Shown: positions 53,501 to 56,500 of the stretch, piece after piece
How positions within the stretch are numbered: position 1 is the first letter of the stretch
Layout of the letters: each line of letters starts with the position of its first letter
Assembly: GCF_013167455.1 (NCBI RefSeq)
Contig: NZ_CP038332.1
Source: Escherichia coli O157:H7
GTDB taxonomy: Bacteria > Pseudomonadota > Gammaproteobacteria > Enterobacterales > Enterobacteriaceae
Direction: 5' to 3' (one strand)
Length of the DNA stretch: 64,000 nucleotides
Position numbers: made by a program

Positions 53501-56500
53501 CAGAAACATCCACGTCTGGTCCAGATGCAGAATGCGGTTTGCGTGGTCCAGTACCATCAGCACCAGTGCCACCGTTTTGATGATATCCCGCTGTCCGGGT
53601 GACCAGACCAGCAACGACTGCAACCAGGTATCGGTCCGGGCAGCCAGTGAATCGTTACGTGTCGTGTTCGTGTTATCCGTTGTCATCAGTGTTTGTCTTC
53701 CTGTATCAGTCTCCGCCCAGGGTTTTCTCTTTCTGCAGGTCACGAACCATATCCCGCTCCATCTGCTGCAGTCGCTCCTGCAGCAGGTTTTCCCGGACAA
53801 CCTCACGGACCGCCTCCCGCTCCCGTTGTGGTTCACGCAGTACACTCTCCGGCAGCGCGGCTTCCCGTTCAGAAGTGACAGCCCGTTCACGCTCCTGCCC
53901 GGCAATCTCCCTGACAGCCTGCTCTGTTCTGCCGTCCGGCAGGTCAGGTTTGTTCTCTGCCATTTTACGGACAATTTCATCTGCGCGGCGTTCCGTTTCA
54001 CGGCGGATGGCCTCTTCAGCCTGCCGCTGTGCCAGTACCTCTGCCGTGACCGGCTCGCCATTTCCGGCTCCCGGCTGGACGCTGTTGTCCGGGATATCCC
54101 CCCACACGCGACCACCGGTGATGGCACCGGGATTCCACGGACGACCTTCACCGGCGATTCTCACCACCACACCGCTGTCAGGATTATCACGGGCAATCCG
54201 GACACCATCCTGCATATTATCAGCCAGCAGGCTCTCTCCGTTACGGCTGCCCTGCAGGGCCACGAACTGCGCATCCCCGCTGCCTTTCACCCGTCCTTCA
54301 CCACTGAATCCCCGCAGCCCGTTTCCGTCATCCGTGGTCAGCGGGTTCAGCCAGATACCGGCAGACTTGCCGTTACGGTCAAACGCCGGCAGTGCCACAT
54401 ACGGCTGTGGATATTTACGTCCCGGAGCAATAAACCGTGCAGGACTGTCTCCCCCGGCAAGCCCCGCCTGACGAAGAACGGCACGCCCTGCCGCCACGTC
54501 CCGCAGCTCCCGCGCCGTACTGAACAGCCGCTCTGCATTCATGACCTCCCGGTCCGGTTTCGGTTCAAACACATCGTGGGCTGTTCCTTTCTGTACGGCA
54601 TTGTTAATGGCATCCGTCCAGCCCTGACGGTTATCGGTGTACACCTGCACATGCTGCTTCATACGCGACAGGGCCACGTAGGCTGACTCAAAGCCGGCCA
54701 TCAGTTTCCGGCTGCCTTCCGTACCTTCAAGCGCGATGGCAAAGGTTTCACTTGCCCCCTGCGCACCGTGAGCGGTGATGGCATAGGCCAGGTCAATATG
54801 TTGCTCTGCCCGCTCCTGGGCGGGGCGAATCACCCGGGTCTGCTGTCCGCCCGACAGCGTGACACTGTCACCGGAAACCGCTGTCACCGTCCAGACGCTG
54901 TTGGCCACATAACCACGCCCCCGGTCACTCTTCGTGAAGCGCATCCGGTCACCGGTCCCCACCCTGATGGTGTCCGGGGGGTACAGTGTGACGCCTTCAG
55001 CCACCGCCTCCCGGGGCGAAATCAGCCGCGTGTTACCTTCCGCATCCTGCAGAGTTATCAGCCCGTCATCCCTGCTGATACCGGCAATCCGGTGATTGAA
55101 CCGCCCCGGAAATCCTGGAGACTAAACTCCCTGAGAAAGAGGTAAACAGGATGACTAAAAATACTCGTTTTTCCCCCGAGGTCCGTCAACGGGCAGTTCG
55201 TATGGTTCTGGAAAGTCAGGGCGAATATGACTCACAATGGGCGGCAATTTGTTCCATTGCCCCAAAGATTGGCTGTACACCAGAGACTCTGCGTGTGTGG
55301 GTTCGTCAGCATGAGCGGGATACCGGGAGTGGTGATGGTGGACTCACCACCGCTGAACGTCAGCGTCTGAAAGAGCTGGAACGTGAAAATCGTGAACTGC
55401 GCGTTCAGTTCTTCCGGCTACTGAACCGTCGATATGAAAAAGCGAGCATCATACTGACGTCAAACAAAGGGTTCGCAGACTGGGGAGAAATGTTCGGAGA
55501 GCATGTGCTGGCAACAGCGATCCTGGACCGGCTGCTACATCACTCAACCACGCTGAATATCAAAGGAGAGAGTTACCGGTTCAATATTCCAGACAGACTC
55601 GTGGTTCATTTGAGCCTCCATGCTCGCCCTGAACTCCGGGCACACAATACGTGATGTCTCCCGCCCACTTCTGGTTCGGGCCACTGGCGTAAAAATCCTG
55701 CTCCAGCAGATTTTCTGACACAGGCTGGCTGTGTGCGCGGTAACAGACCGGACTGAAATTCCAGGAAGCTTTTGCCCTCAGTCCGTGACGGCGCAGGCTT
55801 TCCGTCACGGTTTTTACTTTAAAATGGTAACCCTGGGCACGCAGTTCATCCATCAGGCGTTTCGCGAAGTATGTCGTGGCCTTTGGAACGTCTGCTGATG
55901 CTGGGTAAGATTAGTCAGCAAATTCCGCATACAGGAAATCAGCGCTACTTTTTTGAGGGGACAATAACCTTAAGAGTGATAAAGATTATATGCTTTTCAT
56001 AGAGAGACTCATCTATACCTGTAATACTGAAAAATGTATTGTTTTCTAGGAAGTTTTTTTGAGTGAGCGTATTTTTATCCACAACAACCGAATTACTCGA
56101 AGAAGCAATTTTAAAAAATATTTTATATATATCACTATTTTGTTCACGAAAGTAATCCTTACTAAATGAATTAAAGCTAAACTCAATATGCTCATAATTA
56201 GACAATTTTATTGTATCTCCTACAGCCACACTTTCTTTTGACCAGAAACGACATGTCGAGTATGCGTATATAGATAATGACATATTGGCAATACCGTCTT
56301 TTCCAGCATACTCAGAAACAGTATGTATATATCTATTGATAATATTGTTCTGTAAATACGAATACGTTGGATTTCTATATGCTTCAATCAAATCAAATAA
56401 TTCATGTGAATATAAAGAAGGGAATGAGTTAGAGTAAAGTGGATTATGCAAGATAAAACATCCATTTTTTAATGGAGTAGGGTAAAAAAACAACCTGTCA

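What the first reader, a model, noticed from the sequence alone, without database searches (positions are those of the whole stretch)
55151..55654. In-frame chimeric ORF joining the IS629 OrfA DNA-binding N-terminus to an IstB C-terminal fragment
The rearrangement that broke IS629 created a 167-codon ORF with the native IS629 promoter, RBS and HTH region fused to an IS21-family IstB tail. If expressed it could bind IS629 ends as a truncated regulator.
Basis: inference. Interest (0 to 1): 0.3.

Follow-up and report, generated by a model that had tools for sequence, protein, structure and literature searches.

The report
Accidental fusion ORF in pO157 IS debris
The 167-codon reading frame is real, but it is a chance in-frame join of four dead mobile-element fragments on the well-known E. 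coli O157:H7 virulence plasmid pO157, has been annotated since 1998, and shows no sign of a function.

Summary
The window is plasmid pO157 of E. coli O157:H7 (100% identical to Sakai AB011549). The ORF at 55151-55654 exists exactly as described. GenBank has carried it since 1998 as CDS "IS629" (BAA31817.1 / NP_052667.1 pO157p60, hypothetical protein). NCBI's current pipeline splits it into two pseudogenes.

- Codons 1-84 are IS629 orfA, with the IS629 left end and leader intact upstream.
- Codons 85-86 come from a 5-nt relic, GTTCA.
- Codons 87-143 are an internal piece of IS21 IstB (F180-R236 of 265). It lacks Walker A/B and the true C-terminus.
- Codons 144-167 and the stop are antisense read-through of a 76-nt group II intron 5' stump and an IS3 orfB fragment.

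Comparison with sister plasmids suggests the fusion arose by a deletion between two oppositely oriented IS629 copies. One frame in three would have stayed open.

There is no promoter-like site and no published expression evidence. At least two natural O157:H7 isolates carry a stop at codon 111. The host already has 22-25 IS629 copies making native OrfA. The best reading is a neutral pseudogene scar. A regulatory role is untested and unlikely. Interest is low.

The parts
53706..55096 (-). The 3' remnant of traI (relaxase/helicase), cut at its 5' side by the IS629 left end.
   Evidence: Annotated as helicase I / TraI pseudogene missing its N-terminus. traI homology covers query positions 1-97, which is window 55000-55096.
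55097..55402 (+). IS629 nt 1-306: left inverted repeat, 54-nt leader with ribosome-binding site, and orfA codons 1-84 (HTH domain and the first part of the C-terminal helix). The frameshift site, pseudoknot, orfB and right end are absent.
   Evidence: 100% identical to the IS629 copy in L006. The L006 annotation places the frameshift pseudoknot at about IS nt 336-452, beyond the breakpoint. Pfam HTH_Tnp_1 scores 44.9 bits. PDB 2RN7 'IS629 orfA' matches at E=6.5e-50.
55403..55407 (.). GTTCA, a 5-nt junction piece. It is the reverse complement of IS629 nt 1-5 (TGAAC) and is read as a relic of a second, oppositely oriented IS629 that once abutted istB.
   Evidence: In pN5D43-1 (L010) an inverted IS629 ends ...GGCGGTTCA directly against istB, 23 nt upstream of the pO157 breakpoint. 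The missing 23 nt are flanked by GTTC/GTTC. The relic interpretation is an inference.
55408..55581 (+). Internal fragment of IS21 istB (codons about 180-236 of 265). It has no Walker A/B motifs and lacks the last 29 codons.
   Evidence: 96-97% identity to IS21 istB. Pfam IstB_IS21 scores 87.4 bits over profile positions 169-232/238. It aligns to IstB structures 5BQ5 residues 122-180 and 8Q4D residues 182-240.
55570..55581 (.). A 12-nt microhomology, GAGTTACCGGTT, shared by istB and the intron fragment at their junction.
   Evidence: Three-way alignments and a direct read of the sequence.
55570..55645 (-). The first 76 nt of a group II intron (5' GTGTGCCCGG... on the - strand), truncated. The ORF reads its antisense strand as codons 144-165.
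   Evidence: The same IS3 orfB::intron junction occurs in NZ_CM172609.1 (L005/L009). There the intron continues through ltrA to a domain V-VI match (RF00029, 64.9 bits, E=1.3e-11), followed by resumption of an IS3-family transposase (orfB-like) reading frame. Rfam finds nothing in the window stump itself.
55646..55861 (-). IS3-like orfB fragment (about 91% identical to IS3). It supplies the ORF's last two codons and its stop codon on the opposite strand.
   Evidence: NCBI's pipeline annotates an IS3 family transposase pseudogene missing both ends.
55151..55654 (+). The 167-codon chimeric ORF (pO157p60 / BAA31817.1 / AAC70165.1).
55581..55853 (-). Overlapping 90-codon antisense ORF annotated 'transposase Tra5' (pO157p59). 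It is the IS3 orfB fragment reading on into the intron stump, and is likewise accidental.
   Evidence: There is no Pfam hit.

Best explanation
The ORF is a neutral by-product of the decay of mobile elements at the boundary between the F-like backbone of pO157 (traI remnant) and the toxB module. The following order of events is inferred. A group II intron homed into IS3 orfB next to toxB. A deletion using 12 nt of microhomology then joined intron nt 76 to IS21 istB. An IS629 inserted into istB in the minus orientation, and another IS629 inserted into traI in the plus orientation. Finally, an illegitimate deletion joined nt 306 of the plus copy to the last 5 nt of the minus copy, with a further 23-nt loss between GTTC repeats. 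The join happened to fall in the istB frame, so IS629 orfA codons 1-84 read through 57 IstB codons and 24 antisense codons to a chance stop. No function is selected. If any protein is made from the weak IS629 left-end promoter, it is an HTH domain carrying a non-native tail that probably cannot fold, and it is present against a background of native OrfA from about 20 intact IS629 copies.
For: Shown directly:
- The window is pO157.
- The piece-by-piece homology and breakpoints are established.
- The istB/intron/IS3/toxB junction is shared with about 33 non-O157 toxB plasmids and with EPEC E2348/69 pMAR2, where istB continues upstream without IS629. That junction is therefore older.
- pN5D43-1 has an inverted IS629 tip against istB, 23 nt from the pO157 breakpoint.
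- The IS629-istB junction occurs only in 284 of 5426 complete E. coli genomes, all on plasmids and all at least 99% identical, so it marks a young clone and its conservation carries no signal of selection.
- One phase in three gives the long ORF.
- NCBI's pipeline calls two pseudogenes.
- A W111* allele is present in strains 4276 (USA) and NCCP 13918 (Korea).
- There is no promoter-like site.
- The IstB part covers only Pfam profile positions 169-232 of 238.
- O157:H7 strains carry 22-25 IS629 copies (PMC3271280).

Inferred: the order of events, the reading of GTTCA as a relic, and the instability of the product.
Against: The full Pfam HTH_Tnp_1 region (73 of 75 profile positions), the native leader and the ribosome-binding site are intact, so translation of a DNA-binding N-terminus is not excluded. 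The W111* allele still leaves that part intact. No expression data of any kind were available, so absence of function is argued rather than demonstrated. The promoter scan is a crude consensus test, and IS3-family left-end promoters are known to be weak and non-consensus.
Confidence: 0.85

Rival explanations
1. One reading: the chimera is expressed from the IS629 left end, and its OrfA-derived HTH binds IS629 inverted repeats. It would then act as an extra, possibly dominant-negative, regulator of IS629 transposition in O157:H7.
For: The leader, ribosome-binding site and HTH domain are intact. In the IS3 family, OrfA proteins inhibit transposition by binding the ends (statement in PMC5771124).
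Against: 84 of 108 OrfA residues remain, and the C-terminal helix is cut. In IS911 that helix forms the leucine zipper needed for multimerisation (my own knowledge). There is no promoter-like site and a junction promoter is not possible. The product would be redundant with 22-25 native IS629 copies. NCBI's pipeline calls pseudogenes. No literature trace was found. The locus is clonal, so conservation is uninformative.
Confidence: 0.08
2. The IstB-derived segment gives the product an IS21-related activity, for example interference with IstA/IstB of resident IS21-family elements.
For: The Pfam IstB_IS21 hit is strong (87.4 bits), and the segment aligns to residues 182-240 of IstB in the transpososome structures 8Q4D and 8Q3W.
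Against: Only 57 of 265 residues are present. The Walker A/B region, the N-terminal domain and the C-terminus are all missing. A natural W111* allele removes most of the segment.
Confidence: 0.01
3. The region matters as RNA or DNA rather than as protein, for example as a 3' element of toxB or as an antisense pair between the two overlapping ORFs.
For: The ORF overlaps the 90-codon antisense ORF by 74 nt. One terminator-like hairpin lies on the - strand at 55710-55697, downstream of toxB.
Against: The terminator count equals the shuffle expectation (1 found against 1.2 expected). There is no Rfam match. The whole stretch is explained by IS and intron fragments.
Confidence: 0.03

Closest known systems
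IS629 OrfA (IS3 family, IS51 subgroup; PDB 2RN7)
   Same: Residues 1-84 are encoded by DNA 100% identical to a functional IS629, with the same leader and ribosome-binding site. They match the solved OrfA at E=6.5e-50.
   Different: The last 24 residues of the 108-aa OrfA are replaced by 83 foreign residues. There is no frameshift site, orfB or right inverted repeat, so no OrfAB transposase and no mobile element.
IS21 IstB helper AAA+ ATPase (structures 5BQ5, 8Q4D, 8Q3W are of the IS5376 homologue)
   Same: 57 residues come from IS21 istB in its own frame (97% DNA identity).
   Different: It is an internal fragment only (F180-R236). It lacks the N-terminal domain, Walker A/B and the last 29 residues.
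Existing database entries for this very ORF: BAA31817.1 / NP_052667.1 (pO157p60), AAC70165.1
   Same: Identical 167-aa sequence, seen on 755 contigs.
   Different: The entries call it 'IS629', 'hypothetical protein', 'transposase' or 'ATP-binding protein'. None of the entries retrieved describes the four-part mosaic or the antisense intron tail.
Group II intron inserted in IS3 orfB (full copy in NZ_CM172609.1, with ltrA)
   Same: Same 5' exon junction and the same first 76 nt.
   Different: Only a 76-nt stump remains in pO157. It lies antisense to the ORF and has no ribozyme core or reverse transcriptase.

Membership tests
IS629 / IS3-family insertion sequence (functional element) | Two terminal inverted repeats | tested here: not met
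   Only the left end is present, from 55097. Homology stops at IS nt 306.
IS629 / IS3-family insertion sequence (functional element) | orfA and orfB joined by a programmed -1 frameshift to give a DDE transposase | tested here: not met
   The frameshift pseudoknot lies at about IS nt 336-452 in L006, beyond the breakpoint. No orfB follows.
IS3-family OrfA regulator | N-terminal HTH DNA-binding domain | tested here: met
   Pfam HTH_Tnp_1 scores 44.9 bits against a cut-off of 24.1, over profile positions 1-73/75. It is near-identical to 2RN7 (3 substitutions) over residues 1-84.
IS3-family OrfA regulator | Complete C-terminal coiled coil / leucine zipper for multimerisation | tested here: not met
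   Native OrfA has 108 aa. The chimera diverges after residue 84, within ...[12 protein letters not shown]|. That the zipper is required is known from IS911 (my own knowledge).
IS3-family OrfA regulator | Binds the IS ends and lowers transposition | not testable with these tools
   Needs band-shift and transposition assays.
IstB (IS21-family AAA+ helper) | Walker A and Walker B ATPase motifs | tested here: not met
   The fragment starts at IstB F180. Walker A (GPPGVGKT, encoded at L004 about 2279-2302) and Walker B (LILDE, encoded at L004 about 2451-2465) lie upstream of the breakpoint.
IstB (IS21-family AAA+ helper) | Full-length match to the family profile | tested here: not met
   Only profile positions 169-232 of 238 are matched.
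Group II intron | 5' GUGYG, ribozyme domains I-VI and an intron-encoded protein | tested here: not met
   The 5' GTGTG and 76 nt of domain I are present. There is no Rfam match in the window. The full relative has ltrA and a domain V-VI hit.

The most novel reading that the evidence does not exclude
The chimera is translated, and its intact OrfA HTH occupies IS629 ends without being able to multimerise. It would then be a plasmid-borne dominant-negative damper (or, conversely, a de-repressor) of IS629 activity, which would contribute to lineage differences in IS629-driven genome diversification of O157:H7.
Probability: 0.04. Interest if true: 0.35.

Novelty: already known. Interest (0 to 1): 0.08.

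Why it matters
It matters little for function. The ORF is a scar, and treating it as a gene inflates the protein counts for pO157. Its modest value is forensic. The four-part mosaic marks the exact seam between the F-like backbone (traI remnant) and the toxB module. Comparison with pN5D43-type and pMAR2 plasmids orders the rearrangements that left pO157 with a truncated traI. It also shows how an in-frame join of pseudogene fragments can pass as a conserved protein in a clonal pathogen.

Tried and rejected
- AlphaFold2 on the single sequence gave mean pLDDT 44.9 and pTM 0.31, which is uninformative. I drew no structural conclusion and ran no fold search.
- Rfam on the window stump and on L005 found nothing. 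The intron identity had to be shown through a full relative.
- A synthetic query made of a longer IS21 istB plus the intron/IS3 part found no record covering at least 80% of it. This seemed to argue against a longer ancestral istB. pMAR2 later showed istB continuing upstream, but with a 5-nt insertion and a frameshifted annotation.
- Literature searches for pO157p60, L7095-L7097 and IS629 OrfA regulation found no data on this ORF. So did the supplements of the EHEC Ribo-seq papers.
- Burland 1998, Lim 2010 and Chen & Hu 2006 are not held in the library.
- The EDL933 pO157 records (NC_007414, AF074613) are not in the collections.
- I considered whether the 28-bp match at 41821-41848 was the other half of the broken IS629. 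I rejected this, because it is a separate 5'-truncated copy overlapping the same IS positions.
- I considered a simple inversion of IS629 nt 6-306 as the origin. I rejected it because pO157 keeps nt 1-5 next to traI.

Full report
**Identity of the window.** The 1.1 kb around the finding is 100% identical to plasmid pO157 of E. coli O157:H7 Sakai (AB011549.2 65435-66535, reverse strand) and to hundreds of other pO157 records. In the 1998 GenBank record the ORF is already a CDS labelled "IS629" (BAA31817.1). RefSeq NC_002128 calls it pO157p60, hypothetical protein. The exact 167-aa sequence is in the protein collection under AAC70165.1 and other accessions, on 755 contigs, and is named "transposase" or "ATP-binding protein". 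NCBI's current pipeline does not accept it as a gene. It annotates two adjacent pseudogenes, a transposase missing its C-terminus and an ATP-binding protein missing its N-terminus.

**Check of the observation.** The ORF runs from ATG 55151 to TGA 55652-55654 and has 167 codons. Pfam finds HTH_Tnp_1 (44.9 bits, aa 1-86) and IstB_IS21 (87.4 bits, aa 81-144, profile positions 169-232 of 238). Window 55097-55402 is identical, base for base, to a functional IS629 annotated with a programmed frameshift. The identity runs from the first base of the left inverted repeat through orfA codon 84. The observation therefore stands, including retention of the native leader and ribosome-binding site.

**Full anatomy.** Alignments to parent elements give the following map.
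- traI 3' remnant, minus strand, 53706-55096.
- IS629 nt 1-306, at 55097-55402.
- A 5-nt piece, GTTCA, at 55403-55407.
- An internal fragment of IS21 istB, at 55408-55581. It is 96-97% identical to IS21 and covers IstB F180-R236 of 265.
- A 12-nt microhomology, GAGTTACCGGTT, at 55570-55581.
- The first 76 nt of a group II intron on the minus strand, running from 55645 down to 55570 and beginning GTGTGCCCGG.
- An IS3-like orfB fragment on the minus strand, 55646 to about 55861.
- The 3' end of toxB at 55945.

In protein terms:
- Residues 1-84 are OrfA.
- Residues 85-86 (VQ) come from the 5-nt piece.
- Residues 87-143 are IstB.
- Residues 144-165 are the antisense strand of the intron stump.
- Residues 166-167 and the stop are the antisense strand of IS3 orfB.

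It lacks Walker A/B and the last 29 codons of istB. The ORF's own tail is not IstB at all.

**The intron stump.** Rfam finds nothing in the window, as expected for 76 nt. An E. coli chromosome (NZ_CM172609.1) carries the same IS3 orfB sequence, interrupted at the same base by the same sequence. There it continues through an ltrA reverse transcriptase/maturase gene to a domain V-VI match (RF00029, 64.9 bits, E=1.3e-11). An IS3-family transposase (orfB-like) reading frame resumes after that. This identifies 55570-55645 as the 5' end of a group II intron that had homed into IS3.

**History from sister plasmids.**
- The istB/intron/IS3/toxB arrangement occurs in 319 of 5426 complete E. coli genomes, always on plasmids.
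- Only 284 of these carry the IS629-istB junction. All 284 are at least 99% identical, and those listed are pO157-type plasmids.
- Most of the other 35 are about 150-kb toxB plasmids such as pN5D43-1, with 100% identity from 55408 onward. The rest include pMAR2 of EPEC E2348/69 (97%).
- In pMAR2, istB continues upstream into istA with no IS629. The istB-intron junction is therefore the older event.
- In pN5D43-1, an IS629 lies in the opposite orientation, with its left-end tip (...GGCGGTTCA) directly against istB, 23 nt upstream of the pO157 breakpoint.
- The pO157 "filler" GTTCA equals that tip, and the missing 23 nt are flanked by GTTC repeats.

I infer that pO157 descends from a replicon with IS629(-) in istB and IS629(+) in traI. 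An illegitimate deletion then joined nt 306 of the plus copy to the last 5 nt of the minus copy. This is an inference. No intermediate was found, and a 5-nt match alone is weak evidence.

A third plasmid (CP146553.1) has the same IS3/intron stump, cut 15 nt shorter and joined to unrelated DNA. This shows repeated erosion at the site.

**Chance or selection.** Reading on from the IS629 breakpoint, one phase stays open for 83 codons because it is the istB frame. The other two phases stop after 6 and 10 codons. A long fusion ORF was therefore a one-in-three outcome. All carriers belong to a young clone, so sequence conservation carries no signal of selection. At least two isolates from different continents, strain 4276 (USA) and NCCP 13918 (Korea), carry W111*, which removes most of the IstB part and the tail.

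**Function.** Several points argue against a role.
- The consensus scan finds no sigma-70-like site in 54900-56000. By eye the best -10-like hexamer (TAAACT, 55123-55128) has no properly spaced -35.
- IS3-family left-end promoters are weak, and the strong junction promoter needs a right end, which is absent here (my own knowledge of IS911 and IS2).
- OrfA is cut at residue 84 of 108, inside the C-terminal helix. In IS911 that helix forms the leucine zipper needed for multimerisation (my own knowledge).
- The IstB piece is a partial AAA+ core that cannot bind ATP.
- O157:H7 strains carry 22-25 IS629 copies (PMC3271280), so any HTH supplied by this locus is a small addition to native OrfA.
- No paper or supplement searched reports transcription, translation or phenotype for this ORF.

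One point argues for a role. The whole HTH domain, leader and ribosome-binding site are intact. IS3-family OrfA proteins are reported to inhibit transposition by binding the ends (PMC5771124).

The single-sequence AlphaFold2 model was too poor to use (pLDDT 44.9).

**Verdict.** The regulatory interpretation is unsupported and unlikely (about 8%). The feature is an already annotated pseudogene mosaic on a thoroughly studied plasmid. Its main value is as a marker of how the toxB module and the truncated traI came to be adjacent. Interest is low (0.08), and novelty is "already known".

Noticed in passing
window 12047-12112 (- strand): An isolated 66-bp IS629 left-end remnant (2 mismatches in the first 60 nt). 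It is followed by another IS whose orfA-like ORF starts near 11935 ([19 protein letters not shown]...). Rump et al. (PMC3271280) mention a 66-bp IS629 remnant in pSFO157, which may be the same relic.
   Followed up: partly
window about 41848 downward (- strand): A 5'-truncated IS629 copy begins at IS nt about 279 (GGCTGGAACGTGAAAATCG...) and continues through the frameshift region and into orfB. It overlaps the same IS positions, 279-306, as the fragment under study, so it is not its missing half.
   Followed up: partly
L012 (NZ_CP017443.1) and L013 (NZ_JBXHCR010000002.1), codon 111 of the ORF: The same nonsense allele (W111*) is present in O157:H7 strains from Idaho cattle hide and from a Korean patient. 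This implies a pO157 sublineage marked by this SNP.
   Followed up: partly
L011 (pMAR2 of EPEC E2348/69) 3210-6700: The EPEC EAF-type plasmid keeps the same istB/intron/IS3 scar next to a decayed toxB/lifA-like gene (DUF3491 pseudogene). The scar therefore predates the split between EPEC and EHEC toxB-module carriers.
   Followed up: partly
L008 (CP146553.1) 4900-5460: Another toxB-type plasmid has the IS3/intron stump cut 15 nt shorter and joined to a region that includes a small ORF annotated as a hypothetical protein. It also has about 180 bp more between the IS3 fragment and toxB than pO157 does.
   Followed up: partly
window 55570-55581: A 12-nt perfect microhomology (GAGTTACCGGTT) lies between IS21 istB and group II intron domain I at their junction. 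This is an unusually long microhomology for an illegitimate deletion.
   Followed up: yes
window 55581-55853 (- strand): A 90-codon ORF annotated 'transposase Tra5' (pO157p59) overlaps the 3' end of the chimeric ORF by 74 nt. It too is a fusion, of the IS3 orfB fragment reading into the intron stump, and has no Pfam hit.
   Followed up: yes
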